Shown here piece after piece: positions 689 through 13,933 of a stretch of DNA of 60,330 bases (its first letter is position 1; each line of letters begins with the position of its first letter). The translations under genes and the position numbers were made by a program. Under the pieces are notes generated by a model. It saw only the letters and a list, made by a program, of their open reading frames with translations. It was not told where the DNA came from and ran no database searches. The DNA comes from Chloroflexota bacterium (lineage in GTDB: Bacteria > Chloroflexota > UBA6077 > SHYK01): the NCBI GenBank assembly GCA_009377635.1, contig WHTR01000005.1, positions 1-60,330 on the forward strand, given 5' to 3'.

Positions 689-2263
689 TCAGATCCGGAC
701 GGCCTTGACGTATTCGAATCCGGGGATCTCCCGAATCCGCTTGAACACCTTGGGTGGGATGGGGTCGTCCACAAACGAGAGCATAAGGGCCGGCCCTCGG
801 GGCCGCTCGCGGCCAACCTGCATGGCTGAGATGTTGATGTCATTCTCCCCGAGGATCGTTCCGAGCCTCCCGATCATCCCCGGCTGGTCGGTATGGTGGG
901 TCAGCAGGACATAGCCGCCGGTCGGCACGACGCTGACCCAGTAGTCGTCTATTCGAACGATGTGGGGCTCCGCGGCGATGATCGTTCCGCCGACGAGCGA
1001 ACGGCCGCGGTCGGTTTCGACGCGCACGGTGATCAGATTCGCGTAGTTCTCTGTCTCGCCGCTCTTCCGCTCCGTGATATTGAGCCCCCGGTTGCGAGCG
1101 ACGATCGTCGCGTTGACCAGCGTCACGGTCTCCTCGGAGATTGGCTGGAGGAGCCCGCGGATTACCGCGGCGCGAGGGGCGGCGGTGTCATACTCGGCGA
1201 TCTCTCCGCTGTAGGTGATCTCGACGCGCCTGAGCTGTCCCTCAGCGAGCTGCGTGGCGAGATTCCCGAGGACCTGCGCCATCTGCGCGTACGGAGTCAG
1301 GACGCGCGCGGTTTCAGCGGAGACGGCGGGCGCGTTCACGGCGAATGCGGCCGGGCGGCCTTCGAGTACCGCGACGATCTGCTCGGCAAGCTCGACTGCC
1401 ACGTTGACCTGGGCCTCCACCGTGCTGGCTGCCAGGTGTGGCGTCGTCACGATTCTCGGATGACGGAGCAGCGCGAGGTTCGTCGCGGGTTCCTCGCGGA
1501 ACACGTCCAGCGCAGCGCCCGCGATGGCCCCGAGGTCCAAGGCGTCCAGGAGCGCGTCCTCGTCCACGATGCCGCCCCGGGAGCAGTTCACGATCCAGGC
1601 GGTTGGCTTCATGCGCGTGAACTCTGTCTTTCCGATCACCCCGTCCGTCTGCGGCGTCGCTGGGACGTGGATCGTCAGAAAGTCCGACTCGGCCAGCAGC
1701 GTGTCGAAGTCGACCAGGCCGACACCAATCCGGCTGGCGTGCTCCTGCGACACATACGGGTCGTGCGCGATCAGCCGCATCTCGAAGCCGAGCGCCCGCT
1801 TCGCGACCTCGGTCCCGATTCGCCCGAGTCCGAGCACGCCGAGCGTCTTCCCGTGGATCTCGACGCCCATGAACTTTGACCGCTCCCACCGACCCTCGCG
1901 CAGAGCCGCCGACGCCTGGGGAATGTTTCGCGCCGCGGCGATGATGAGTCCGAGGGTGTGCTCAGCAACGGCGATCGTGTTCCCGGCCGGCGCATTGACG
2001 ACAACGATCCCACGCGCCGTTGCCGCGTCGACGTCAATGTTGTCGACCCCGACGCCCGCTCGGCCGATGACCTGGAGCTTCGTCCCAGCCCTGATGACAT
2101 CGGCGGTCACCTTGGTCTCGCTGCGGACGACGAGCCCTTCGTAGCCGGGAATGAGCTCGAAGAACGCCTCGCGGGACAGTCCGAGGCGGACGTCTACCGG
2201 AGTGTGGCGCGCCAAAGCGTCGACCCCGTCGGCTGCGATCGGGTCAACGACGAGTACCGCCAC
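689..2263 (-). CDS. serA: D-3-phosphoglycerate dehydrogenase with C-terminal ASB/ACT domains
   Basis: GRAGVGVDNID, GLGRIG Rossmann motif, TPHLAAST, ACT domain (DQPGMIG...NISAMQVGR). Confidence 0.96.
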   Translation of the reverse strand: MAVLVVDPIAADGVDALARHTPVDVRLGLSREAFFELIPGYEGLVVRSETKVTADVIRAGTKLQVIGRAGVGVDNIDVDAATARGIVVVNAPAGNTIAVAEHTLGLIIAAARNIPQASAALREGRWERSKFMGVEIHGKTLGVLGLGRIGTEVAKRALGFEMRLIAHDPYVSQEHASRIGVGLVDFDTLLAESDFLTIHVPATPQTDGVIGKTEFTRMKPTAWIVNCSRGGIVDEDALLDALDLGAIAGAALDVFREEPATNLALLRHPRIVTTPHLAASTVEAQVNVAVELAEQIVAVLEGRPAAFAVNAPAVSAETARVLTPYAQMAQVLGNLATQLAEGQLRRVEITYSGEIAEYDTAAPRAAVIRGLLQPISEETVTLVNATIVARNRGLNITERKSGETENYANLITVRVETDRGRSLVGGTIIAAEPHIVRIDDYWVSVVPTGGYVLLTHHTDQPGMIGRLGTILGENDINISAMQVGRERPRGPALMLSFVDDPIPPKVFKRIREIPGFEYVKAVRI

Positions 2264-2271
2264 GGCACCGC

Positions 2272-3366
2272 CTACCGCGTCGAGACGGGGGCAACGTGGC
2301 TGATGACCTCGCCCAGCGGATGGATCGCCGCGTCGATGTCCGCCTCGCTGACCCAGCCGAGGTGGCCGATGCGCATCGTCGTCTTGGTGATGGAGCCCTG
2401 GCCGAGCGCGAGTACCGTGTCGTACTCCTCCTCAAGCTCCTTGGCGATCGCGCGGGAATCGATCCCCTCGGGTGTACAGAACGCCGTTACGGTGTTCGAA
2501 GCATGGGGCGGATCGGCGAAGAGCTTGAGCCCGAGCGAGGCCACGCGCTCACGGCAATACCGGGCGATGCGCGCATGTCGTGCGAACACCTGCTCGCACC
2601 CCTCATCGACCAGGAGCCGCAGGCCCTCGCGCAGGGCGTACATGACGCTGACAGCCGGCGTCCACGGCGTCTCACCGTGCTCGATGTACCGCTTGGCCTG
2701 GGTGAAGTCCCAGTAGAATCGCGGCAGCGTTGCTCTGGCGTGCCGTTCCCAGGCGAGGGGACTCACCGATGCGAAGGCCAGGCCCGGCGGCGCCATCCAT
2801 CCTTTTTGGGACCCGCTGAGCACAACATCGCAGCCCCACTCGTCGGTCAAGACCGCGATCGACCCGATGGAGCTGATGCCATCCACGATGAGGAGCTTGT
2901 CGCGCTGCTTGACGACGCCGGCGAGCGCCGCCAGGTCATTCGTTACGCCGGTGGAGGTTTCGTTGTGCGTCACGACGACGGTGGTCACGGCGGGGTCCGC
3001 ATCAAGCCGGCGAGCGATCTCGTCGGGATCCGCGGCCTGGCCCATGGGAAAGTCAACCTTGACGAGGTCGATCCCGAACCGGCGCGCGATCTCGGCGAAG
3101 CGATCGCCGAAGTTGCCGATGGAAACGACCATCGCCCGCTCCCCGGCGGAGAGGGTGTTCACAAGGGCAGCCTCCATCGCGCCGGTCCCCGACCCGGTGA
3201 GGATCAAGAGGTCGTTCTTCGACTGAAAGAACTGCTTGAGGTGATCGGTAACTTCGGCGATGATCTCGCCGAACTCCGGCCCGCGGTGGTTGATCATCTG
3301 CTTCCGCTGTGCCTCACGTACGCTCGGTGGCAGCGGAGTCGGGCCGGGAATACGAAGATTCATCAA
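2272..3366 (-). CDS. Class V PLP aminotransferase (alanine-glyoxylate/serine-pyruvate family, probable phosphoserine aminotransferase role)
   Basis: PGPT, GSGTGAME, HNETSTG, SGSQKG (PLP lysine), RIGHLG; directly upstream of serA. Confidence 0.9.
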   Translation of the reverse strand: MMNLRIPGPTPLPPSVREAQRKQMINHRGPEFGEIIAEVTDHLKQFFQSKNDLLILTGSGTGAMEAALVNTLSAGERAMVVSIGNFGDRFAEIARRFGIDLVKVDFPMGQAADPDEIARRLDADPAVTTVVVTHNETSTGVTNDLAALAGVVKQRDKLLIVDGISSIGSIAVLTDEWGCDVVLSGSQKGWMAPPGLAFASVSPLAWERHARATLPRFYWDFTQAKRYIEHGETPWTPAVSVMYALREGLRLLVDEGCEQVFARHARIARYCRERVASLGLKLFADPPHASNTVTAFCTPEGIDSRAIAKELEEEYDTVLALGQGSITKTTMRIGHLGWVSEADIDAAIHPLGEVISHVAPVSTR

Positions 3367-3391
3367 ATCCTCCGTGGCATGAACGCATTAT

Positions 3392-3411
3392 GCCATGCAC
3401 CCTTGCATGGC
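3392..3411. promoter_or_regulatory. Palindrome GCCATGCA-N4-TGCATGGC abutting a minus-strand CATAAT -10-like box upstream of the ser operon
   Basis: Perfect 8-bp inverted repeat read from the sequence; operator role is inferred. Confidence 0.35.
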
Positions 3412-3492
3412 CACCATCCCATTCAACCGCGGCCCGATCATCATTCCCGTCAGGGCCGTTTAGGGACGTTCGGGCTCGACGAACGAATGCCC

Positions 3493-3516
3493 GGAGCCCT
3501 TCCTCGGAAGGGCTCC
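3493..3516 (-). terminator. GC-rich hairpin after the methyltransferase gene
   Basis: GGAGCCCTTC-CTCG-GAAGGGCTCC, 6 nt past the TGA at 3523-3525; no strong U tract. Confidence 0.5.
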
Positions 3517-3522
3517 AACGTC

Positions 3523-4632
3523 TCAGGGGACGAGGCGGTAGAGGCGGAACGTGTCGTGCTCGATGGGCAGCACCTCCATCTCGCGGAACCCCGCGTCGAG
3601 GGCGTAGCGCCGGAGCGTGTCAGGTCGCATCATCGTGCCGGTAGCAGCCGACGGCTGCTCTGCCATGGCGACCGGCAGTCAGCAGACGACGCTGAAGCCG
3701 TAGAAGAGGCGTTCCAGCTCGTCGCCGGGCGCGGTGAACGTCTCCGCGACCCGCTCGTCCACGACCAGTACCGATGCGCCCTCGCCGAGCAGACCGCGCA
3801 TCGAGCGCAGCGCCTCGACGGGACGCGGGAAGTCGTGGAGCGACTCGCACATGATGGCGAGGTCGTATCGACCGGCGAGCGCTGGGTCCGATGCGTCGCG
3901 AGCATGGAAGTGGACCCGATCCTGCACACCCGCCGCCGACGCATTCGCCCGTGCCAGCTCGATGACGGCCTCGTCCGGGTCGAACCCATCCACCTGCACA
4001 GCAGGGTACGCCCGGGCGATCGCGATGCTGGACCAGCCTGCTCCACAGGCGACGTCGGCCACGTGGCCAGGTCCCTCGCGCTGGAGCCGAGGGTGGACGT
4101 CGGGGATCGCCGGCAGCCACTCGTTTCCCAGGAGCTGGAGGAAGATGGGCCGGTTCTGCTGCGCCTGCGCTTCCCGTGCGTCGGCCCCGTAGTCGCGCCA
4201 AGGGATGCCGACGCCCGTCCGGAACGCATCGACGACGTCCGGCAGGCGTCTGCCGATGCACGCGGCGTACCGCCCGAAGAATGCGAGGTGGCTGAGGCTA
4301 TCGGGATCGAGGAGCACCTCGGCGTGCCCGGGCGGCAGGCGGTAGCGACGTGCGCCCGGCTCTGCCCCGGCGTCGTTGACGTTCAGGATGCCGGTGACTG
4401 CCTGCTGTTCGAGCCACTCGCGCACGTAACGCTCGTGGGTCCCAGATCGTGCGGCGAGCTCCATCGCCGTCGCGGGACCACCGTCGTTCAGGACGCGGTA
4501 CAGGTCGAGACGATCACCGATATAGACCGTCGAGAGATCCATCGTGTCGAGCAAGGCCTGGAACAGACGACCCACAAGGGCGTCTCGCTGCTCGGCCACC
4601 TGCTCGACGGTCGCCCCGTTCGTGTCAGTCAT
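3523..4632 (-). CDS. Winged-helix + class I SAM-dependent methyltransferase (Rv2258c-like), 369 aa if the in-frame UGA at 3679-3681 is read (candidate selenocysteine)
   Basis: RBS GGAGGAG, ERYVREWL wHTH, DVACGAG motif I. After the UGA the frame continues LPVAMAEQPSAATGTMMRPDTLRRYALDAGFREMEVLPIEHDTFRLYRLVP*, the expected C-terminal helix and strands. Confidence 0.88.
3636..3678 (-). promoter_or_regulatory. Candidate bacterial SECIS element
   Basis: Immediately 3' of the UGA: lower stem UGCCGGU/ACCGGCA, upper stem AGCAGCC/GGCUGCU, apical loop GUC beginning after 26 nt. Confidence 0.55.
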
Positions 4633-4803
4633 CGATCTCTCCTCCCAGCCGGATGAGTCTGGTCGGCCCGGCTGTCACCATGAGTCTAGGCGGGGCGCGC
4701 GGATCCGGCATCGGGGAAACCACCTAGCTTCAGAGGACCCGAGTACCGGACTTCCGGAGCGGCAGGATACCAGTCTCCGGCGCCGAGCGCGCGGGTAGGC
4801 GTC

Positions 4804-7800
4804 CTAAATGTCCGGAGGCTCGATGCCCCGCTCGACCACCCACGCGGCGATCTCGGCGCGCCTGGAGTGGCCAAGCTTCGACATAATGTTGGCGACGTGC
4901 GCCTCGACGGTTCGCGCGCTGAGGAACAGTTCGTCGGCGATCGCGCGGTTGGTGCTGCCCCGGGCGATCAGCGCTGCTATCTCCCGCTCGCGCTCCGTCA
5001 GTCCGCCGAAGGCCTGCTTGGCGGCGACTCGCGTCGACGTCGGGCGAAGGCGCGGGAAGAGGGCCGTCGCGCGCTGGAGAAACTGGTCCCGCAGCGCGCG
5101 GTGGGGCAAGTCGGCGGCGAGGTCGTTCACGATGGCGCGGCTGGCGGAGAGCTCCGCCTCGGCCTCCGGACGGTGCCGTTGCAGACGGTACACATTGCCG
5201 AGGGCGAGGTGGATCCGCCACAGCAGCGGGCGCGCACCTTGAGCGAGCGCCGCGTCTCGAGCGTGTCGAAGCGTGTCCTCAGCATCATCCAGTCGGCGCG
5301 CCGATGTGAGGGCCTCGCCTCGGAGCTTCAACAGGCGCGGAATAGGCTCGGCAGGGTGCGCACTCGGTCCGGCTGCGAGTAAATGGTCGAGGATGTGCAG
5401 CGCCTGAGTCGCGTCGCCCCGGGCCAGCGCGTGCTCGGCGCGGGCGCAGGCGAGCATGCGTTGGAAGAGGGTTGCCGCCATGTCGGCTCCGAGCGCCTCG
5501 CCGATCAGTGTATCGGCCCGCGAAAGGTCCCGCATGGCGATGCACGTCCGGGCGAGAAAAGCCGACACCTCTCGAAGAAAGAGAGACGAGCCGATCTCCC
5601 CGGCCAGTGCCAACGCTTCCTCGAGATGCTGGCGCGCTGCGGGGAACGCGAGGAGATCCAGATGGAGCGCCCCCAGCGCGCAGCGGGCCTGGGTCATCCA
5701 CTGGCGGTGATCGATCTCGCGCGCGACCTCGAGGGAGCGCTGGGCCGCCTCCAGGGCCCGCGCGTAGTGGCCGGCGGCACCGAGGCACATGGCCAGCTCC
5801 GCAAGCGCGTACGACTCGCCGGCGCGCCAGCCGATATCGCGAGCGATAGCCAGTGACTCCTCCGCATAGGGCACCGCCTCCGGCAGAGCGACCGGCGCTG
5901 GCGGCGCCGTATCGGCCTCGTAGGATCCAGTACACAACGACATGGTCGCGAGGATCGAGGAGAGGCCCTGGCGATCGTCCAGCTCGCGGAAGAGTGCGGC
6001 CGCCTTCCGTCCATAATCCCAGGTGTCCCACGCATCGCCACGGCCAGCGCTGGCCATCGCCAATAGGTCCAGCGTTGATGCCACCCCCCGGCGATCGCCC
6101 AGTCGTTCGAACATCGCCAGCGCCTCCTTGTGATACGTGATCCCCTCGTGCGGCTGCTCGACGTTCACGTACCAGTTCCCGACCCGATTCAGGCTCTCGG
6201 CGATGGCGTCCGGGTGACCCAGCTCACGTGCCAGGTCGAGGGCGCTGCGAAAATACTCGCCCGCTTGGCCGTAGTCGCGCGCGGCCCAGAGGAAGCCGAG
6301 GTCGATGAGCGCTTGCCAGACTGCCCGCTGATCTCCAGCCTCACGCCCGACGCTGAGCGACTCCTCGTAGTCGCTGCGTGCGGCCTCGAGGTCGCCGAGC
6401 GCTTCGTACGCGCGCCCTCGCGCGCGGTGCAGGCTCTCGGGTGGGGCACGACCGAGCCGCTCCGCCGCCTCGATGGCCCGCGTGAAGCACAGCGCCGCGG
6501 CCCGGGGCGTGTAGAGCGCCTGCGCTCGATCTCCAAGCCGCTGGGCGTATTCGAGGGCCTTCTCCCAGATGCCGCCCCGATAGAAATGATCGGCCAGATC
6601 CACCAGGTGCCTGTCCGTCGGCTCGGCGTACATCCGCTCCATGACCTCGGCGACGCGACGATGAAGGCTGCGACGCTCGGGTGCAAGGAGCTCTCCGTAC
6701 ACCGCCTCCTGCGTGAGCGCATGGCGAAAGGCGAATTGATCCGGCGATGTCTGGACGACGAGCTGCTCAGCGAGCAGCTCCCTCAGGACCTCCCAGAGCT
6801 GGCTCTCGTCGATCGTGGCCAGCGCTTGCAGGAGGGCCAGATCGAAACGCCGCCCGGCAACCGCGGCGAGCTGGACGATCCGTCGTCCGGCCGGGCTCAG
6901 TCGGCTCGTCCGCCTCTGGACCGCGTCCTGCAGGCTCCGGGGGACGGGCCATCGGCCCGGCTCGCGCGCAAGCGCCGACAATGTGTCGTGCCCGGTGGTG
7001 AGCGATCTCAGGACTTCCTCGATGTAGAACGGATTCCCCTCCGTGAGGGTGTGGACTGCGTCCAGAAGGCCGGGGGGTATGGGGCGCTCCGGCCCGAGAA
7101 GCGAACGAAGCATCACGTCTGTGTCCGAACGGCTGAGGGGCTCGAGCCGCAGCTCGCTGCCCAGCCGTTCGCGGTCGACGGTTGCGAGAAAGCGGGCAAA
7201 GCCTTCGTGTGCTTCGTCGCTTCGGTAGGTCGCAAGCAGCAGGATCGCTTGGCGGCCGATGCGCCGAGCGACATACAGCAGGAACTCCAGGCTCGTGTCG
7301 TCGCTCCAGTGCAGGTCCTCCATGATCAGCAGGAGGGGATGTCCCTCGCCAACGGAGGTAAAGAACTTGGCGAGGCTGTGAAAGAGGCGATGCTTCTCCT
7401 GCTCCGCGTCGAGCGCTGGCGCCGGGGCAGCCTCCAGTCGCGAGGCCAGATCGGGCACAAGTTTTGTCAAGTCCCCTGCAAGGGGTCCGAGGTGTGCAGA
7501 GGCTTGCTGGGCGAGCTGGGCTGCTGGGAGCCGCTCGAATAGGTCGACCATCGGGGCGTACGGAAGGGTACGGTCCGTCTCGTAGCAATGTCCCTCGAGG
7601 ACGACGAACTCCGGGGAGCCGGCATATGACGTCGTCTCAGCGACGAGTCGTGATTTTCCCATGCCGGCCTCCGCCGCTATAAGGACGAGTGCCCCGTTGC
7701 CATGCTCCACATCGTCAACAATGTCATGAAGAGCATGGATGTGGGTACCACGACCGACGGTCACCGGGCAGACGAGGGGCGCATTGATGGGAAGCGTCAT
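4804..7800 (-). CDS. Large ATP-binding LuxR-family (LAL/MalT-like) regulator: AAA ATPase, TPR region, C-terminal LuxR HTH
   Basis: AEAGMGKS Walker A, LLLIMEDLHW Walker B, GNPFY, TPR-like helices, GLTEREREIA...IADELFLSARTVEAHVANIMSKLG. ATG 7800 preferred over 7902. Confidence 0.92.
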   Translation of the reverse strand: MTLPINAPLVCPVTVGRGTHIHALHDIVDDVEHGNGALVLIAAEAGMGKSRLVAETTSYAGSPEFVVLEGHCYETDRTLPYAPMVDLFERLPAAQLAQQASAHLGPLAGDLTKLVPDLASRLEAAPAPALDAEQEKHRLFHSLAKFFTSVGEGHPLLLIMEDLHWSDDTSLEFLLYVARRIGRQAILLLATYRSDEAHEGFARFLATVDRERLGSELRLEPLSRSDTDVMLRSLLGPERPIPPGLLDAVHTLTEGNPFYIEEVLRSLTTGHDTLSALAREPGRWPVPRSLQDAVQRRTSRLSPAGRRIVQLAAVAGRRFDLALLQALATIDESQLWEVLRELLAEQLVVQTSPDQFAFRHALTQEAVYGELLAPERRSLHRRVAEVMERMYAEPTDRHLVDLADHFYRGGIWEKALEYAQRLGDRAQALYTPRAAALCFTRAIEAAERLGRAPPESLHRARGRAYEALGDLEAARSDYEESLSVGREAGDQRAVWQALIDLGFLWAARDYGQAGEYFRSALDLARELGHPDAIAESLNRVGNWYVNVEQPHEGITYHKEALAMFERLGDRRGVASTLDLLAMASAGRGDAWDTWDYGRKAAALFRELDDRQGLSSILATMSLCTGSYEADTAPPAPVALPEAVPYAEESLAIARDIGWRAGESYALAELAMCLGAAGHYARALEAAQRSLEVAREIDHRQWMTQARCALGALHLDLLAFPAARQHLEEALALAGEIGSSLFLREVSAFLARTCIAMRDLSRADTLIGEALGADMAATLFQRMLACARAEHALARGDATQALHILDHLLAAGPSAHPAEPIPRLLKLRGEALTSARRLDDAEDTLRHARDAALAQGARPLLWRIHLALGNVYRLQRHRPEAEAELSASRAIVNDLAADLPHRALRDQFLQRATALFPRLRPTSTRVAAKQAFGGLTEREREIAALIARGSTNRAIADELFLSARTVEAHVANIMSKLGHSRRAEIAAWVVERGIEPPDI

Positions 7801-7904
7801 GGCCGTTAGCTTACCACCGCCTCTCACAGGTCGGGCCCACCGGGTTTTCTCATTCCACCGTGACACCCGCGTTCCGACGGCGCTCCAGCTTACGGGTTTC
7901 ACTC

Positions 7905-8493
7905 TGGATTCCGTTTAGAATACGTGCGGCTCAGCCACGCCGTCAGCCTCAAGGCGCCGGAGGCGCTATGACCGACCTCGCCTCGAAGATTCGGGCGATC
8001 CCGGATTTCCCAATCCCGGGGATCCTGTTTCGGGATATCACGCCCCTCCTGGCGGACCCCGTGGCCTTTCGCACCACCGTTGACCAGCTTCACGATCGGG
8101 TGCGCGATCTCAGGATCGATGTCGTTGTGGGAATGGAGTCGCGCGGATTCATATTCGCGGCGCCACTGGCCTACCTCCTGGGCGCCGGACTCGTGCCCAT
8201 CCGGAAGCTCGGGAAGCTGCCCGCTGAGACGGTGAGCGCAGAGTACGACCTCGAATATGGAAAGAACAGCGTGGAGATGCATCGCGACGCCATCTCGGCG
8301 GGCCAGCGGGTGCTCGTCGTCGACGACCTCATCGCGACCGGTGGCACGGTCGAGGCCACGCTGAGCCTCATCCGGCGACTGGGTGGCGAGGTCGTCGCGT
8401 GCCTGTTCCTCATCGAGCTGCAGGAGCTGAATGGGCGCAGTCGCGTCGACGGCGCGCGGGTCATCTCGCTGCTCCCCTACTAAACGGAATCCA
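7905..8493. repeat. 14-bp perfect inverted repeat pair flanking apt (7905-7918 TGGATTCCGTTTAG / 8480-8493 CTAAACGGAATCCA)
   Basis: Exact reverse complements read from the sequence. Confidence 0.7.
7968..8483 (+). CDS. apt: Adenine phosphoribosyltransferase
   Basis: PDFPIPGILFRDI, ESRGF, RKLGKLP, YDLEYG, VVDDLIATGGT; GGAGG RBS before ATG 7968. Confidence 0.96.
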   Translation: MTDLASKIRAIPDFPIPGILFRDITPLLADPVAFRTTVDQLHDRVRDLRIDVVVGMESRGFIFAAPLAYLLGAGLVPIRKLGKLPAETVSAEYDLEYGKNSVEMHRDAISAGQRVLVVDDLIATGGTVEATLSLIRRLGGEVVACLFLIELQELNGRSRVDGARVISLLPY

Positions 8494-8564
8494 AGGTGAT
8501 ACCCGCATGATGGCGTCCCTCCGGAATGCGGGTGGCACTGTGGAATAGAAATAGGGACCGCCAC

Positions 8565-9647
8565 GTGCGAACGATCTATCGCGAAGGCCAGGTTGTCAAG
8601 CTCATCGACCAGACTCGCCTCCCTCTTGAGTTAGTCATTGTCGAGTGCACGGAGGCCGGCGAGCTGTGCGAGGCCATTCGAACGATGCGGATTCGCGGTG
8701 CGCCCGCGCTGGGCGTCGCAGCCGCGTACGCGTTCGCCCTCGGCGCGGAGGAGGCTGGAGGGGACGCTCAGGCTGTTCTCGCCCATCTCGACGAGGTCGC
8801 CGCCCTCGTTCGCCGGACCCGTCCTACGGCAGTGAACCTGTTCTGGGGTGTCGAACGCGCCCTTGCAGAGGCTCGATCCGCTGCCGCCAACGGGCCGTTG
8901 GCGCTCCGAGCAGCTCTCTGGGAGCTGGCCGATCGCCTCGCCGACGAGGACGTCGCGCTGAACCAGCGGCTTGGGGCGAACGGGGCCGCCCTCATCTCTG
9001 AAGGCGCGCGCATCCTGACGCACTGCAATGCCGGTTCCCTCGCGACGGTCGGGTGGGGGACGGCTCTCGGCGTTGTCCGCACGGCCCATCGCGCTGGCCG
9101 GCGGTTGCATGTGTTCGTCGATGAGACCCGCCCGTTCCTGCAGGGCGCGCGGCTCACGGCCTGGGAGCTGGAACAGGAGGGGGTACCGTACACCATCATC
9201 ACGGACAGCACGGCCGGACATCTCATGGCCCGCGGCGAGATCGACCTGTGCCTCGTCGGGGCCGACCGAATCGCTGCGTCGGGTGACGTGGCCAACAAGA
9301 TCGGGACGTACACACTTTCGGTGCTCGCGAACGCGCATCGCCTCCCGTTCTACGTTGCGGCGCCCACCTCGACGATCGACCTCAGCACAGAGACGGGGGC
9401 GGAGATCCCGATCGAGGAACGCGACTCTTCGGAGGTTCTGTCGTTTGCCGGCGTTCGCGTGGCGCCCTCCGGGGCCCGGGCGCGCAATCCGGCGTTCGAC
9501 GTCACCCCCAGCCGATTCGTGACGGCCATCATCACGGAGGTGGGAGTGCACAGCGCGCCGTACGAGATAACGCTGGAAGAGGCTGTACGGGCAGGTCCCC
9601 ATCCCCTGCCCCCCGACCCCGACCGCCACGCGGGGTCGCCCCCATGA
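8565..9647 (+). CDS. mtnA: S-methyl-5-thioribose-1-phosphate isomerase
   Basis: IRGAPALG, TRPTAVNL, THCNAGSLAT, ETRPFLQGARLT, GADRI, NKIGT, NPAFDVTP. Start GTG 8565 or ATG 8526. Confidence 0.96.
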   Translation: MRTIYREGQVVKLIDQTRLPLELVIVECTEAGELCEAIRTMRIRGAPALGVAAAYAFALGAEEAGGDAQAVLAHLDEVAALVRRTRPTAVNLFWGVERALAEARSAAANGPLALRAALWELADRLADEDVALNQRLGANGAALISEGARILTHCNAGSLATVGWGTALGVVRTAHRAGRRLHVFVDETRPFLQGARLTAWELEQEGVPYTIITDSTAGHLMARGEIDLCLVGADRIAASGDVANKIGTYTLSVLANAHRLPFYVAAPTSTIDLSTETGAEIPIEERDSSEVLSFAGVRVAPSGARARNPAFDVTPSRFVTAIITEVGVHSAPYEITLEEAVRAGPHPLPPDPDRHAGSPP

Positions 9648-10456
9648 TCGAGCGCGAGCAGGTGGCCGAGATCGGCGTCATTGGCGGGTCTGGCTTCTAC
9701 AGCTTGCTCGAGGACGCCGTCGAGCGATGGGTAAACACGCCTTACGGGCACCCGACGGACACGATCTCCATCGGCGAGATTGGCGGCCGGCGGGTCGCGT
9801 TCGTGCCGCGACACGGCAGGGGACATCGCCACCCCGCGCATCGGGTCAACTATCGCGCCAACGTCTGGGCGATGTGGAGTCTCGGCGTGACCCGGATCCT
9901 CGCGCCGTCCGCCGCTGGGAGCCTGCAGCCCCATGTCTGCCCTGGGCACTTCGTCGTGTGTGACCAGTTCGTGGACCGGACCAACGGGCGCGATGATACA
10001 TACTTCGACGGGCCGGTCTCCGCGCACATCAGCTCCGCGGATCCGTACTGCCCGGACCTCCGCTCGCTCGCCGTGACGAGCGGTCGCTCTCTGGACATCC
10101 CCATGCACGATCGCGGGACCGTGGTCGTGATCCAGGGACCCCGCTTCAGCACACGGGCTGAGAGCCGGTGGTTCAGCAGCATGGGGTGGGAGGTCATCAA
10201 CATGACCCAGTACCCGGAGGTGGTCCTCGCCCGCGAGCTGGAGCTATGCTACGTCAACATCTCGCTCATCACAGACTGGGACGTAGGGCTCGACGACGCG
10301 CCCGGCGTTGCGCCCGTCTCCGCCGAGGAGGTGCTGCACGTGTTCAATGAGAATAATGAGCGGGTGAAGGACTTGATCTACCGGCTCATCCCCGTGATCC
10401 CAGCGGAGCGGACCTGCCCGTGCGCCACGGCGTTGGCCGGCGCGATCATCAGTTGA
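9644..10456 (+). CDS. mtnP: S-methyl-5'-thioadenosine phosphorylase
   Basis: IGGSG, PRHG, VNYRAN, QGPRFSTRAES, NMTQYPE, TDWD. Confidence 0.95.
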   Translation: MIEREQVAEIGVIGGSGFYSLLEDAVERWVNTPYGHPTDTISIGEIGGRRVAFVPRHGRGHRHPAHRVNYRANVWAMWSLGVTRILAPSAAGSLQPHVCPGHFVVCDQFVDRTNGRDDTYFDGPVSAHISSADPYCPDLRSLAVTSGRSLDIPMHDRGTVVVIQGPRFSTRAESRWFSSMGWEVINMTQYPEVVLARELELCYVNISLITDWDVGLDDAPGVAPVSAEEVLHVFNENNERVKDLIYRLIPVIPAERTCPCATALAGAIIS

Positions 10457-11430
10457 CAACCGAGGTGGCACGTCCCGTGCCAGTTCTCGTGGTCGGTTCT
10501 CTGGGCCTCGACACGTTAACGACCCCATTCGGGCAGGTCAAGGAGGTCCTTGGAGGAACGACGTCGTACTTCGCGCTGGCGGCGAGCATGTACACGGACG
10601 TGCAGGTCGTCGCGGTCGTCGGGACGGACTTCCCTGAGGAGTATCGGCGCGTGCTGGATGGCCGACGCATCGATCTCCAGGGGATCCAGGTGCGGGAGGG
10701 CAAGACGTTTCGGTGGTCTGGCGAGTACCGGTTCGACATGAACCTCGCTCAAACGCTGGACACGCAACTGAACGTCTTCGCCGACTTCCACCCGCGCCTG
10801 CCCGAGGAGTACCGGTCGACCCGGTATGTCTTCCTCGCGAACATCCATCCGGCGCTTCAGCTCGAGGTGGTGAGCCAGGTGCATCGGCCGAAGCTCGTGG
10901 TCATGGACTCGATGAACTTCTGGATCGAGCACAGCAAGGCGTCGCTGACCGAGGTGATGCGCCGTTCAGATGTCGTGCTGCTCAACGACGCCGAGGTGCG
11001 GCAGTTCGCGGAGACGCCGAACCTGATCTCCGGCGCTCGGCACATTCTCAGCCTCGGGCCTCGTGCCGTCGTGGTCAAGAAGGGCGAGCACGGCGCGCTG
11101 CTCGTCTCGAAGGAGGACGGTGTGTTCGTCGCGCCCGCCTACCCGCAGGAGGAGGTCCGCGACCCCACTGGAGCGGGAGACTCCTTCGCGGGAGGGGTCA
11201 TCGGGTACCTGGCGAGCAGAGACGATGTCTCGCCGCAGGCGATGCGACGGGCGATCATCCACGGCTGTGCGGTAGCATCGTTTACGGTCGAGGACTTCAG
11301 CGTACGGCGGCTCGAGCGTCTGAGCAGCTCCGAGGTCCGGGAGCGGTACACCCTATTCCGTAACCTGACGCAGTTTACGGACGAAGAGCTGGGGGTTGGG
11401 ATATCCCAACCCCCAACCCCTAAATCCTGA
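10453..11430 (+). CDS. PfkB-family carbohydrate/nucleoside kinase
   Basis: [26 protein letters not shown]; TTG start overlaps the mtnP stop. Confidence 0.9.
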
Positions 11431-11441
11431 AGGAGATTCCC

Positions 11442-12710
11442 ATGGCCACAGTTCCGTTGAGCCACGATGTGCGGGACCTCTCGCTCGCCCCAGACGGTCG
11501 ACGTCGCATCGAGTGGGCCGATACCCAGATGCCGGTCCTGCGAACCATCCGCGAGCGGTTCGAGCGGGAGCGGCCGCTGGACGGCTTCAACCTCGCGGCG
11601 TGCCTACATATCACGTCCGAGACGGCGAACCTGGCGATCACGCTTCAGGCCGGCGGCGCCAGCGTGCGGCTCTGCGCGAGCAACCCGCTCTCGACGAATG
11701 ACGAGGTGGCCGCCTCTCTTGTGGCGGACTTCGAGATCCCGGTCTTCGCCATCAAGGGCGAGGATGAGTCGACCTATTATCAGCATATCGAGGGCGCGGT
11801 CGCGATCCCTCCCCACGTGACGATGGACGACGGTGCGGATCTGGTCACGACGCTCCACACCCGGCGTCGGGATCTGCTGGCCAGGATCGTCGGCGGAACG
11901 GAGGAGACGACAACCGGCGTCGTTCGGCTCCGGAGCATGGAGGCCAGTGGCGTGCTCGAGTACCCCATCGTGGCGGTGAACCAAGCTGACACGAAGCACC
12001 TGTTCGACAACCGTTACGGGACCGGACAGAGTGCCATAGACGGAATCATTCGAGCCACGAACGTTCTGATCGCCGGACGGACGGTCGTCGTCTGCGGCTA
12101 CGGCTGGTGCGGACGGGGCGTGGCGTCGCGCGCGCATGGCATGGGCGCGAACGTGATCGTCACGGAGGTGGATCCGACGCGGGCCATCGAGGCCGTCATG
12201 GAAGGAAGCCGCGTGATGACGATGGCGGAGGCCGCACGGGTTGGAGATATCTTCGTCACGACAACTGGTAATATCCACGCAATCGGGATCGAGCACCTGC
12301 GCTCCATGCACGATGGTGCGATCGTCGCGAATGCAGGACACTTCAACGTCGAGATCGACATCGACGCGATGGAGCAGATCGCGGCGAAGCGTCGCATGCG
12401 GCCGTTCGTGGATGAATATCGATTCCCGGACGGACACTGCGTCTTCCTCCTCGGGGAAGGACGGCTCGTCAACCTGGCGGCGGCTGAGGGGCACCCGGCG
12501 GCAGTGATGGACATGAGCTTCGCGAATCAGGCGCTGTGTGCCGAGTATTTGGTCCAGAACGCGGCCAGCCTCGACCGAAAAGTGTACGACGTTCCCACGG
12601 GCATCGATCGGGAGGTCGCCCGGCTCAAGCTGGTCAGCCTCGGTATGGAGATCGACGTGCTGACCGCCGAGCAGCGCCAGTACCTTGAATCCTGGGAGTT
12701 GGGGACATGA
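11442..12710 (+). CDS. ahcY: Adenosylhomocysteinase
   Basis: [47 protein letters not shown]. Confidence 0.97.
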
Positions 12711-13933
12711 GCCATTCCTTCATGGCGTCGCCGCGGCTGCTCTTTACATCCGAATCGGTCACGGAGGGGCATCCGGACAAGCTCTGTGACCAGGTCTCGG
12801 ACGCGGTGCTGGACGAGGTTCTGGGCCAGGACCCGTTCGGCCGCGTAGCGGCTGAGGCAGCCACCACCTCGGGGCTCATGATGGTGATCGGGGAGATCAC
12901 GACGAACGCCCAGGTGGACTACGAACGTGTCGTGCGAGAGACCATCCTCGGGGCAGGCTACACCGACGCGGCGTACGGATTTGACGGGAACACCTGCGCG
13001 GTGGTGATCTCCATGAAGAAGCAGTCGTCGGATATCGCGATGGGTGTGAACGCGGCGCTTGAGACCAAGGTGGGCCGGGAGTCCGACGAGGGCGACGAGC
13101 TCGGCGCCGGCGATCAGGGGATGATGATTGGGTTCGCATGCAACGAGACCCCGGAGCTCATGCCCATGCCCATCGCGCTCGCGCATCGGCTGACGAAGCG
13201 CCTCGCCGAGGTCCGGAAGAGCGGACTACTGCCATGGGTGCGGACCGACGGCAAGTCCCAGGTGACCGTGGAGTACGCCTTCGGGCGCCCGACGCGGGTG
13301 GACACGATCGTGATCTCGACGCAGCACGCTCCGGACGTCGACCACGTGACGATCGTGGAGGGGGTCATCGAGCAGGTCATCAAGGAGGTGGTTCCTCCGA
13401 CTATGCTCGTGGACACCCGCTACCTCGTCAACCCGACCGGTCGGTTTGTCGTCGGCGGGCCCATGGGCGACGCCGGTCTCACGGGACGCAAGATCATCGT
13501 GGACACCTACGGGGGCATGGCCCGTCACGGCGGTGGCGCCTTTTCCGGGAAGGACCCCACGAAGGTCGATCGGTCGGCGGCGTATGCGGCCCGCTATGTG
13601 GCCAAGAATGTGGTGGCCGCGGGGCTTGCCGACCGCATGGAGATCCAGATCGCCTACGCTATCGGCGTCGCCAAGCCCGTGTCCATCATGTGTGAGACCT
13701 TCGGCACGAGTCGCGTGTCCGCGGAAGTCATCGACCGGCTTGTGGGGGAGTGCTTCGACCTGCGCCCGGCGCGGATTCTCGAGAACCTCCGTCTGCGACG
13801 CCCGATCTACAAGAACACCGCCGCCTACGGGCACTTCGGGCGCACGGACATCGACGCCCCCTGGGAGGTGACGGACAAGGCCGAGCTCCTGCGCTCCCTG
13901 GCGGGTCTGGGTGACGCCGTTGCCGCAGGCTAA
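12707..13933 (+). CDS. metK: Methionine adenosyltransferase
   Basis: [53 protein letters not shown]. Confidence 0.98.

What the first reader, a model, noticed from the sequence alone, without database searches (positions are those of the whole stretch)
3523..4632. Candidate selenocysteine-containing SAM methyltransferase (C-U-L-P) with SECIS-like hairpin
Seen: the ORF stops at FYGFSVVC-TGA, but the frame continues for 51 codons of methyltransferase-like C-terminus to a second TGA followed by a terminator-like hairpin. A two-stem hairpin with a GUC loop starts right after the UGA. Established: bacterial SECIS elements sit directly 3' of the UGA with a G early in the apical loop, and Sec typically aligns with Cys. 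From memory, Rv2258c-like proteins have a Cys here (S-x-x-x-C-[LM]). Inference: a vicinal Cys-Sec methyltransferase, a family I do not recognise as a described selenoprotein, possibly acting on thiols, selenols or metalloids.
Basis: partly seen in the sequence, partly recalled or inferred. Interest (0 to 1): 0.85.

Follow-up and report, generated by a model that had tools for sequence, protein, structure and literature searches.

The report
Selenocysteine-containing Rv2258c-like methyltransferase gene
A small-molecule methyltransferase gene carries an in-frame UGA exactly where all its relatives have an invariant cysteine, in a bacterium that has the full selenocysteine machinery, so it is most likely a new selenoprotein and it marks that cysteine as the family's key functional residue.

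Summary
The gene lies on the minus strand, 4632..3523. It has an in-frame TGA at codon 318 (window 3681..3679), then 51 more codons of conserved C-terminus, then a second TGA (3525..3523).

The UGA column is Cys in 120 of 120 close homologues, in 21 of 21 orthologous loci from other genomes, and in 113 of 116 usable 50%-identity cluster representatives. The genome encodes tRNA-Sec, SelA, SelB and SelD, and at least six other genes of known selenoprotein families with in-frame UGA.

Two further sequence variants keep the TGA: a second contig of the same assembly (85% aa identity, dS about 0.47) and a contig from a public run (about 94% nt identity). Both show no synonymous change around the TGA.

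A 7-bp hairpin with a GUC triloop sits 26 nt after the UGA. This hairpin type follows only 0.074% of the genome's TGA triplets. It resembles the post-UGA hairpins of selD and the PDO gene in the same genome.

No UGA form turned up outside this lineage. The protein has the Rv2258c/TnmJ fold (wHTH plus class I SAM methyltransferase). That family did not appear among the methyltransferase entries my term searches retrieved from a 2026 review of prokaryotic selenoproteins. Substrate and chemistry remain inferred.

Verdict: very probably a genuine selenoprotein from a family not previously listed; moderately interesting.

The parts
3523..4632 (-). Whole gene: 369-codon Rv2258c-like methyltransferase with Sec at codon 318. 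Final stop TGA at 3525..3523.
   Evidence: Pfam HTH_65 (residues 36-107, 44.7 bits) plus Methyltransf_25 (191-284, 54.5 bits). Homologues of 364-370 aa cover 95-99% of the read-through.
3679..3681 (-). In-frame UGA, codon 318, proposed Sec codon. Preceded by Cys317 (TGC).
   Evidence: Aligned with Cys in 120/120, 21/21 and 113/116 relatives.
3643..3659 (-). Candidate SECIS apical hairpin H2: AGCAGCC-GUC-GGCUGCU, 7 bp, GUC triloop 26 nt after the UGA.
   Evidence: Identical in contig C135 and unchanged in the X1 contig.
3660..3678 (-). Hairpin H1: CUGCCG-[GUCGCCA]-UGGCAG, directly after the UGA. In C135 the loop differs (ACCUGCA) while both arms are kept.
3526..3678 (-). 51 codons downstream of the UGA. 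They encode the conserved C-terminus (helix, beta6, beta7).
   Evidence: All 10 invariant columns of alignment A1 that lie downstream of 318 are, by definition, kept in both UGA forms, which are themselves rows of A1.
3492..3516 (-). 11-bp GC-rich hairpin after the final stop, without a U-tract.
   Evidence: Read. No terminator by the rule.

Best explanation
The gene encodes a genuine selenoprotein. It is a 369-residue small-molecule SAM-dependent methyltransferase of the Rv2258c/TnmJ type, with an N-terminal winged-helix dimerisation domain and a class I Rossmann methyltransferase domain.

UGA-318 is decoded as selenocysteine by SelB and tRNA-Sec. Decoding is guided by a stem-loop in the coding sequence just downstream. 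Most likely this is the 7-bp, GUC-loop hairpin 26 nt after the UGA, perhaps within a three-way junction.

Sec replaces the family's invariant Cys in the signature S-x-L-[H/C/x]-C-L-P. The motif lies at the C-terminal end of the long helix that follows strand beta5.

Shown: the UGA/Cys pairing, the Sec machinery, conservation of the UGA and its RNA context, and the fold.

Inferred: that this helix lines the substrate pocket. In related family-2 O-methyltransferases I recall, without having tested it here, that the catalytic His sits on the equivalent helix. From that I infer that the Cys/Sec acts as a nucleophile, a redox-active partner of Cys317 (a Cys-Sec selenenylsulfide), or a ligand for a soft metal(loid) or chalcogen substrate.
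For: 1. Cys/UGA pairing.
- Column 318 is Cys in 120 of 120 best homologues.
- It is TGC or TGT in 21 of 21 orthologous loci from other genomes.
- It is Cys in 113 of the 116 cluster representatives that passed my in-frame filter (S at 314, G at 332). That filter kept 116 of 150. The 3 exceptions look frameshifted.

2. Sec machinery in the same genome.
- tRNA-Sec: 69.2 bits against a cut-off of 47; ARAGORN gives SeC with anticodon tca.
- selA 561 bits, selB 314.6 bits, selD 364.9 bits with its own in-frame TGA.

3. The organism uses Sec widely. Six further genes carry an in-frame TGA in known selenoprotein families:
- PDO_seleno_TRX, 250.9 bits against a cut-off of 185.
- DsrE, AhpC-TSA, Rhodanese and OsmC, where one Pfam domain spans the TGA, and GRDB, where the match ends one residue before it.

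4. The UGA is conserved in diverged copies.
- Contig C135 is 85% aa identical. Over the 297 upstream codons dS is 0.471. It keeps FSVVC-TGA-LP and an open frame to the same stop.
- A 9,021-nt contig of public run X1 is about 94% identical (61 differences in 1,040 nt). It has no listed difference between 3569 and 3720. The changed codons among the listed differences split 23 synonymous and 13 non-synonymous.

5. Purifying selection downstream of the UGA.
- dN/dS is 0.49 in frame, against 1.28 and 1.38 in the other two frames.
- Non-synonymous change is lower than the gene-wide synonymous rate (Fisher p = 3.6e-5).

6. RNA-level constraint.
- There is no synonymous change from 22 nt before to 58 nt after the UGA between the window and C135. 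The only changes are 4 in the H1 loop.
- The chance of no third-position change in 24 codons is 2e-4.
- For X1, the chance of no change in 152 nt is 1.3e-4.

7. The hairpin resembles those of known selenoprotein genes in the same genome.
- selD: 8 bp, GCU triloop, 15 nt after the UGA.
- PDO: 5 bp, GUC triloop, 22 nt after the UGA.
- A GUC triloop on a stem of at least 5 bp follows 0.37% of TGA triplets; on at least 7 bp, 0.074%.

8. TGA is the commonest ordinary stop in this genome: 811 of 1,445 long ORFs. The codon is therefore not reassigned.

9. Fold. The AF2 model has pLDDT 93.9 and residue 318 lies in helix 305-322. Best structural matches are TnmJ and Rv2258c at TM 0.79-0.83, followed by natural-product O-, N- and S-methyltransferases.
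Against: No UGA-bearing ortholog was found outside this lineage.
- 0 of 38 other genomes of the order.
- 0 of 400 other sampled genomes of the phylum, 17 of which have Cys orthologues.
- 0 hits of a TGA-containing degenerate pattern in one genome each of 185,579 species.
- Only one hit in JGI metagenome contigs, and it is a chance hit.
- None of 150 cluster representatives ends at the UGA position.

The three UGA-bearing variants are close kin, so they count as one or a few evolutionary events.

Hairpin evidence is individually weak.
- Fold z-scores run from -0.26 to -1.93.
- Cys-form orthologues in this GC-rich family fold about as stably.
- The generic bSECIS-like criterion is met by 13.6% of all TGA triplets.
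- In the 50-nt window fold, the minimum-energy structure does not contain H2.
- The loop lies further from the UGA (26 nt) than in the other selenoprotein genes of the genome (15-22 nt).

The downstream dN/dS test against the downstream region's own dS is not significant (p = 0.068).

There are no RNA, ribosome or protein data. The catalytic role of residue 318 is not shown.
Confidence: 0.85

Rival explanations
1. Pseudogene. A TGC-to-TGA nonsense mutation inactivated the methyltransferase in the ancestor of this lineage, and the 3' part is decaying.
For: The UGA form is confined to one narrow lineage, while 17 other phylum genomes and all database relatives carry Cys. Downstream dN/dS (0.49) is higher than upstream (0.17).
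Against: - The TGA and an intact 51-codon frame persist across copies separated by dS of about 0.47 and about 6% nt divergence.
- Downstream non-synonymous change is far below the neutral expectation (p = 3.6e-5 against gene-wide dS).
- All 10 invariant downstream columns are kept.
- Synonymous sites around the TGA are frozen, which decay does not predict.
- The stop falls exactly on the invariant Cys of a genome that carries the full Sec machinery.
Confidence: 0.07
2. Split gene. UGA-318 is a true stop, and the last 47 residues are made separately from AUG-323, 12 nt downstream, by re-initiation. The two pieces then assemble.
For: An ATG (Met323, a conserved M/L column) lies 4 codons after the TGA. 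Public databases hold 47-aa ORFs that start at this Met: 4 of 30 short relatives. Local sequence conservation could also serve translational coupling.
Against: - No Shine-Dalgarno-like purine run precedes the ATG in either copy (read).
- The break would cut a helix (305-322) inside a single compact domain.
- It does not explain why the stop sits exactly on the invariant Cys codon, or why it is TGA in a Sec-using organism.
- The 47-aa database ORFs could not be tied to an upstream stop. Two of them fit my TGA pattern downstream of the stop, yet the pattern found no such contig. Other short fragments begin at the first Met of clear Cys forms, so they look like artefacts of gene calling.
Confidence: 0.05
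3. Assembly or sequencing error, or near-cognate read-through (Trp or Cys insertion) rather than Sec.
For: The window comes from a fragmented assembly of 343 contigs at 84% completeness. There is no protein evidence for what is inserted.
Against: TGA is present in three independently assembled variants. The Sec machinery and at least seven other UGA-containing genes of selenoprotein families are present. The Cys alignment is the classic Sec signature.
Confidence: 0.03

Closest known systems
Rv2258c (PDB 5F8C/5F8E/5F8F) and TnmJ (PDB 8G5S): Rv2258c-like wHTH plus class I SAM methyltransferases
   Same: Same two-domain architecture (Pfam HTH_65 plus Methyltransf_25). Sequence E-values are 7.5e-41 for TnmJ and 1.3e-31 for Rv2258c. 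Structural TM-scores are 0.79-0.83. Rv2258c has Cys at the aligned position, in the motif S-L-M-H-C-M-T.
   Different: Those proteins carry Cys (Rv2258c) or Ser (TnmJ) where this one has UGA/Sec. Sequence identity is only 25-31%. This protein has Cys, not His, at position 317.
Cys-form orthologues in Chloroflexota, e.g. 'class I SAM-dependent methyltransferase [Nitrolancea hollandica]' (P0004)
   Same: 60-68% identity over 95-99% of the length. Same signature S-[VT]-L-C-C-L-P-x-G-[ML]-A-[ED]-x-P-S-A.
   Different: TGC/TGT instead of TGA. The downstream RNA folds differently and lacks the AGCAGCC-GUC-GGCUGCU hairpin.
[quoted passage not shown]
   Same: SAM-methyltransferase domain proteins that carry Sec. 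MduS is also assigned to PF13649, which this protein matches too.
   Different: - NF047649 scores 18.8 bits against a cut-off of 460.
- No arsenite methyltransferase model appears among the 25 best NCBIfam hits.
- MduS is listed with a CxxU motif and two Sec residues. This protein has a CU motif, one Sec and a wHTH domain.
- A sequence comparison with MduS was not possible, because the source paper (PMC12013261) is not held.
Vicinal Cys-Sec centres: the mammalian thioredoxin reductase C-terminal GCUG (recalled), and the 'CU' motif of metal-binding double selenoprotein MbdU (review table)
   Same: Adjacent Cys and Sec residues, which in thioredoxin reductase form a redox-active selenenylsulfide.
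   Different: Unrelated folds. Here the pair sits inside a helix of a methyltransferase domain, not on a flexible C-terminal tail. No redox partner has been identified.

Membership tests
Bacterial selenoprotein gene (SelB/SECIS-decoded UGA) | In-frame UGA aligned with Cys in homologues, with conserved sequence on both sides | tested here: met
   Cys in 120/120, 21/21 and 113/116. Homologues cover 95-99% of the read-through.
Bacterial selenoprotein gene (SelB/SECIS-decoded UGA) | Genome encodes tRNA-Sec, SelA, SelB and SelD | tested here: met
   all four score above their curated cut-offs.
Bacterial selenoprotein gene (SelB/SECIS-decoded UGA) | Stem-loop shortly downstream of the UGA with G early in a small apical loop (the bSECIS model; its parameters are recalled) | tested here: met
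   A 7-bp stem with a GUC loop 26 nt after the UGA, similar to selD and PDO in the same genome. The generic criterion discriminates weakly: 13.6% of TGA triplets meet it.
Bacterial selenoprotein gene (SelB/SECIS-decoded UGA) | UGA-containing orthologues in other organisms | tested here: inconclusive
   Two further variants keep the UGA (C135; run X1), but both are close kin. None was found in 38 order genomes, in 400 phylum genomes, or by pattern scans of the genome and metagenome collections.
Bacterial selenoprotein gene (SelB/SECIS-decoded UGA) | Selenium demonstrated in the protein | not testable with these tools
   Needs 75Se labelling or mass spectrometry.
Rv2258c-like methyltransferase (wHTH plus class I SAM methyltransferase) | N-terminal Rv2258c-like winged HTH domain (PF21320) | tested here: met
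   44.7 bits against a cut-off of 24.1, residues 36-107.
Rv2258c-like methyltransferase (wHTH plus class I SAM methyltransferase) | Class I SAM-binding Rossmann domain with a glycine-rich motif I | tested here: met
   Methyltransf_25 at 54.5 bits. Invariant D193, C196 and G199. Beta-alpha topology in the model.
Rv2258c-like methyltransferase (wHTH plus class I SAM methyltransferase) | Overall fold matches the solved members | tested here: met
   TM 0.79-0.83 to 8G5S and 5F8C/E/F.
[quoted passage not shown] | Score above the curated cut-off of the family model | tested here: not met
   18.8 bits against 460.
MduS methyltransferase-domain selenoprotein | CxxU motif and two Sec residues (as listed in the table of review PMC13188914) | tested here: not met
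   This protein has one Sec in a C-U motif. Sequence homology to MduS could not be tested, because neither a sequence nor the paper was available.
Arsenite S-adenosylmethionine methyltransferase (ArsM, NF008823) | Match to the family model | tested here: not met
   Not among the 25 best of 30 NCBIfam families at E <= 0.01. The best score for any family is 38.6 bits.

The most novel reading that the evidence does not exclude
Sec at position 318 reveals that the very large, functionally uncharacterised Rv2258c-like methyltransferase family works through a catalytic chalcogen. This is the invariant Cys of the S-x-L-[H/C]-C-L-P motif.

The residue could act as a covalent nucleophile or methyl relay. 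It could be a ligand that holds a soft metalloid or chalcogen substrate (As, Se, Te or a thiol) next to SAM. With Cys317 it could form a vicinal Cys-Sec selenenylsulfide redox switch, analogous to the GCUG centre of thioredoxin reductase, embedded in a methyltransferase active site.
Probability: 0.3. Interest if true: 0.65.

Novelty: new member of a known kind. Interest (0 to 1): 0.5.

Why it matters
Sec is costly to insert. It is found almost only at catalytic, redox or ligand positions.

A natural Cys-to-Sec swap therefore acts as a pointer. It identifies Cys318 of the S-x-L-x-C-L-P motif as the functional residue of the Rv2258c-like methyltransferases. This family has more than 9,000 cluster representatives at E <= 0.001, two solved structures, and no function assigned in anything I could read.

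The gene adds a candidate family to the prokaryotic selenoproteome. It also gives a concrete, testable hypothesis: activity of U318C and U318S variants, metal(loid) or thiol methylation, and selenenylsulfide formation.

There is an annotation point too. Gene callers split this gene into a 317-aa truncated methyltransferase and a 47-aa 'hypothetical protein'.

Tried and rejected
- Rfam scan of 3400-4800 at E <= 10: no SECIS or other credible family. The best hit is AS1726 at 25.9 bits against a cut-off of 50.

- Terminator and promoter scan of 3300-4900: nothing found.

- Fold energy as a discriminator. Cys-form orthologues fold as stably as the UGA forms, so minimum free energy alone was dropped as evidence.

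- Search for other UGA forms:
  - Order, 39 genomes.
  - Phylum sample, 401 genomes.
  - Degenerate TGA pattern in genome contigs: 0 hits.
  - Same pattern in metagenome contigs: 1 hit, L047. It is low-GC with no methyltransferase, so a chance hit.
  - That pattern requires R308, Y311, S314, L319, P/A320, E/D325, P327, S/T328 and A/V329. It would miss UGA forms from more divergent subfamilies such as ...ESDEAA....
  - Cluster representatives: none of 150 ends at position 317. P0283 ends at Y311, probably at a contig edge.
  - Short C-terminal ORFs: 30 found, of which 4 are 47 aa long and start at Met323. This is unresolved and counts neither way.

- Conserved gene neighbourhood. The window's class-V aminotransferase, SerA and LuxR neighbours are not next to the Cys orthologues in 21 other loci. 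Only C135 is syntenic. Context therefore gives no functional clue.

- Residue-level equivalence of 317/318 with the catalytic His of family-2 O-methyltransferases. Profile alignments to MfnG, MmcR, RedM and SibL stop before residue 318, so this stays a recalled analogy.

- RNA evidence: no RNA holder listed. Runs X2 and X3 gave only short pieces under 90% identity.

- Literature:
  - I read passages found by term search in PMC13188914, PMC1976440, PMC1242214, PMC13326102, PMC12013277 and PMC10784701.
  - Haft & Tolstoy 2025 (PMC12013261) was not held.
  - Supplementary tables, for example BSepDB Table S2, were not seen and could list this family.
  - The searches behind 'not in print' were made, plus the in-paper term searches.

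Full report
**What is there**

The feature is a gene on the minus strand, from ATG at 4632 to TGA at 3525..3523.

Table 11 stops it after 317 codons at TGA 3681..3679 (...FYGFSVVC-TGA). The same frame then runs 51 further codons (LPVAMAEQPSAATGTMMRPDTLRRYALDAGFREMEVLPIEHDTFRLYRLVP) to the second TGA.

The read-through product (P0001, with C standing in for U) matches two Pfam domains:
- HTH_65, 'Rv2258c-like winged HTH', residues 36-107, 44.7 bits.
- Class I SAM-methyltransferase models, for example Methyltransf_25, residues 191-284, 54.5 bits.

No NCBIfam model comes near its cut-off. The best is 38.6 bits. The one selenoprotein methyltransferase model that appears, NF047649, scores 18.8 against 460.

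**Cys/UGA pairing**

A search of 5.8 billion proteins gave thousands of relatives. The best 120 are 358-425 aa long (most 358-403), 60-68% identical, and cover 95-99% of the read-through. The named ones are from Chloroflexota, for example Nitrolancea hollandica.

In their alignment the UGA column is Cys in 120 of 120. It lies within S-[VT]-L-C-C-L-P-x-G-[ML]-A-[ED]-x-P-S-A, and position 317 is Cys in 92 of 121 rows.

At the DNA level, 21 of 21 orthologous loci from other genomes have TGC (19) or TGT (2) there.

I then looked at 150 representatives of 50%-identity clusters, which are 38-66% identical to the query. I kept the 116 rows that have S at 314 and G at 332, meaning an in-frame C-terminus. 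Of these, 113 have Cys; the 3 exceptions look frameshifted. Position 317 is His in 63 of the 116, so the family signature is S-x-L-H-C-L-P.

Rv2258c itself reads S-L-M-H-C-M-T. TnmJ reads S-V-L-Y-S-V-P.

**Sec machinery and Sec use in this genome**

The assembly is 3.5 Mb in 343 contigs, 84% complete. It contains:
- tRNA-Sec: 69.2 bits, anticodon tca.
- selA: 561 bits.
- selB: 314.6 bits.
- selD: 364.9 bits, itself with an in-frame TGA.

TGA is also the commonest normal stop codon, closing 811 of 1,445 long ORFs. The codon is therefore not reassigned.

A crude scan of my own combined coding potential on both sides of a TGA with a downstream hairpin. Family searches on the candidates turned up six more genes with an in-frame TGA in families known to include selenoproteins:
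- PDO_seleno_TRX (TIGR02187, 250.9 bits, motif T-U-P-H-C).
- DsrE, AhpC-TSA (W-U-P-K-C), rhodanese-CBS and OsmC (U-x-x-T), where one Pfam domain spans the TGA, and GRDB, where the match ends one residue before it.

The organism therefore decodes UGA as Sec in many genes.

**The UGA is conserved, and so is its RNA context**

The same assembly holds a second, 1,979-nt contig (C135 = L028). It carries an 85%-identical copy that is cut at its 5' end. This copy is followed by the same aminotransferase gene, so it is probably a co-assembled related strain. It reads FSVVC-TGA-LPTCMAEQPSAA and is open to the same final TGA.

Window against C135:

| Region | Codons | dS | dN | dN/dS |
|---|---|---|---|---|
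| Upstream of the UGA | 297 | 0.471 | 0.079 | 0.17 |
| Downstream of the UGA | 51 | 0.304 | 0.149 | 0.49 |

The other two reading frames of the downstream region give 1.28 and 1.38.

Downstream non-synonymous change is well below the gene-wide synonymous rate (Fisher p = 3.6e-5). It is not significantly below the downstream region's own small synonymous sample (p = 0.068).

From 22 nt before to 58 nt after the UGA the two copies are identical, apart from four changes in the loop of hairpin H1 (VA to TC). Elsewhere, third positions differ at 30% of codons. The chance of none in 24 codons is 2e-4.

A third variant comes from public run X1. A 9,021-nt contig covers 3521-4560 with 61 differences, so about 94% identity. 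The 36 changed codons among the listed differences split 23 synonymous and 13 non-synonymous. The longest gap between listed differences is 3569-3720, which contains the TGA and both hairpins. The chance of no change in 152 nt is 1.3e-4, or about 1e-3 after allowing for choice of window.

Only 40 of 62 differences were printed. They are sorted by place and end at 4433, so I take the rest to lie beyond that point.

**The hairpin**

Two hairpins follow the UGA:
- H1: CUGCCG-[GUCGCCA]-UGGCAG.
- H2: AGCAGCC-[GUC]-GGCUGCU, with its loop 26 nt after the UGA.

In the 76-nt fold both sit in a three-way junction closed by UGCUG/CGGCA. Only H2 survives in the centroid structure.

Energies are unremarkable for a 65% GC genome:
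- z = -0.26 for 76 nt.
- z = -1.93 and -1.74 for 50 nt in the two copies.
- For comparison, -1.27 (PDO) and -1.96 (selD) for known selenoprotein genes of the same genome.
- In the 50-nt window fold the minimum-energy structure is an alternative that lacks H2.
- Cys-form orthologues fold as stably but lack this hairpin.

The hairpin type is more telling. selD has an 8-bp stem with a GCU triloop 15 nt after its UGA. PDO has a 5(+3)-bp stem with a GUC triloop at 22 nt. Among 83,956 TGA triplets of the genome, a GUC triloop on a stem of at least 5 bp, 12-30 nt downstream, follows 0.37%; on at least 7 bp it follows 0.074%. These classes were defined after seeing the methyltransferase hairpin. The PDO match is therefore the fairer test.

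The generic 'at least 6 bp, G early in a 3-6-nt loop' rule is met by 13.6% of TGA triplets. Five of the other selenoprotein genes were found with that rule, so their compliance is circular.

**Is it found elsewhere?**

Not outside this lineage.
- No in-frame TGA in orthologues of 38 other genomes of the order.
- None in 400 other sampled genomes of the phylum, of which 17 have Cys orthologues at E <= 1e-80.
- No hit of a TGA-containing degenerate pattern in one genome per 185,579 species.
- One chance hit in JGI metagenome contigs.
- No truncated representative among 150.

Thirty short database proteins match the C-terminal ORF. Four of them are 47 aa long and start at Met323. I could not read their upstream DNA, so they count neither way.

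**Structure and likely mechanism**

AlphaFold2 on a 47-row alignment gives pLDDT 93.9. Residue 318 lies near the C-terminal end of helix 305-322. This is the helix that follows strand beta5 and precedes a loop, a helix and the beta6-beta7 hairpin.

Foldseek ranks TnmJ and Rv2258c first, at TM 0.79-0.83. Next come natural-product O-, N- and S-methyltransferases of the wHTH-dimer type: MfnG, MmcR, RedM, DtpM, DnrK, PhzM-like and ASMT.

From memory, and not tested here, the catalytic His of that enzyme class lies on the equivalent helix. Profile alignments to those enzymes end before residue 318. The family's H-C pair would fit that picture.

I therefore infer that Cys/Sec318 faces the substrate pocket. 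It could act as a nucleophile, as a redox partner of Cys317, or as a ligand for a soft substrate. This step is inference only.

**Context**

Downstream on the same strand lie a class-V aminotransferase (3366..2272) and a SerA-type dehydrogenase (2263..689). Upstream lies a large AAA-TPR-LuxR regulator (7902..4804).

On the other strand, from about 3.2 to 9.3 kb away, lie a phosphoribosyltransferase, MtnA, MTAP, a PfkB kinase, SAH hydrolase and SAM synthetase. None of these neighbours accompanies the Cys orthologues elsewhere.

**Comparison with what is known**

A 2026 review of prokaryotic selenoproteins (PMC13188914; I read passages of its table) lists these methyltransferase selenoproteins:
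- arsenite methyltransferase (UxxG);
- methylated-DNA-protein-cysteine methyltransferase;
- MduS (PF13649, CxxU, two Sec);
- methyltransferase/UXPK-star (NF047649);
- two ArsM fusions.

No entry matched 'PF21320' or 'SAM-dependent'.

The BSepDB paper and the deep-Sep paper do not mention methyltransferases in their main text. Their supplementary lists were not visible, and the primary paper for MduS was not held.

By motif (C-U against CxxU), number of Sec residues (one against two) and architecture (wHTH), this gene is not MduS as listed. Sequence-level identity with it could not be excluded.

**Verdict**

This is very probably (about 0.85) a genuine Sec-containing member of the Rv2258c-like methyltransferases. 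That makes it a new selenoprotein family member of a familiar kind: a Cys-to-Sec swap at a functional Cys. It is confined, as far as sampled, to one Chloroflexota-like lineage.

Its main value is as a pointer to the functional residue of a large uncharacterised enzyme family. Pseudogene (about 0.07), split gene (about 0.05) and error or other read-through (about 0.03) are the remaining alternatives.

Noticed in passing
G000 contigs: C111 (L054), C274 (L053:247-939 minus), C13 (L055), C289 (L056), C298 (L057), C288 (L058), C222 (L059): The genome carries at least seven other genes with an in-frame TGA in known selenoprotein families. They are selD, PDO_seleno_TRX (T-U-P-H-C), DsrE-like (V-U-E-A-C), AhpC/TSA (W-U-P-K-C), GrdB-like (G-U-P-V-C), rhodanese-CBS and OsmC-like (U-L-A-T). 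Each has a small G-initial apical loop 15-22 nt after the UGA.
   Followed up: partly
L058 (G000:C288:54403-55100, minus): In the rhodanese-CBS candidate the TGA lies five residues after the usual active-site Cys (VVVYCQDYQ-U-DLSARAA), not at it. This placement is unusual. I did not check it against homologues.
   Followed up: no
window 7860-13933 (+): A cluster of methyl-cycle and methionine-salvage genes lies about 3.2-9.3 kb from the methyltransferase. It comprises a phosphoribosyltransferase, MtnA (IF-2B family), MTAP-like phosphorylase, a PfkB kinase, SAH hydrolase and SAM synthetase. A functional link is not shown.
   Followed up: partly
L028 (G000:C135:1-1979): A short contig in the same assembly duplicates the window's methyltransferase-to-aminotransferase junction at about 85% aa identity. 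This probably reflects a co-assembled related strain (strain heterogeneity in the bin) rather than a paralogue.
   Followed up: partly
window 3492-3516 (-): A perfect 11-bp GC-rich hairpin (GGAGCCCTTCC-GAG-GGAAGGGCTCC) lies 6 nt after the final stop, without a U-tract. A related hairpin, not an identical one, follows the stop in C135.
   Followed up: no
proteins P0124, P0131, P0146, P0150 (public database): Four 47-aa 'hypothetical proteins' begin exactly at the Met that lies 5 codons after the UGA column. They could mark further UGA forms or pseudogenes in metagenomes, or they could be artefacts of gene calling. Their contigs could not be fetched.
   Followed up: partly
alignment of 150 cluster representatives: Position 317, just before the invariant Cys, is His in 63 of 116 diverse family members. 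In the subclade nearest the window it is Cys (92 of 121 rows). The family thus shows an H-C to C-C to C-U series at one site.
   Followed up: partly
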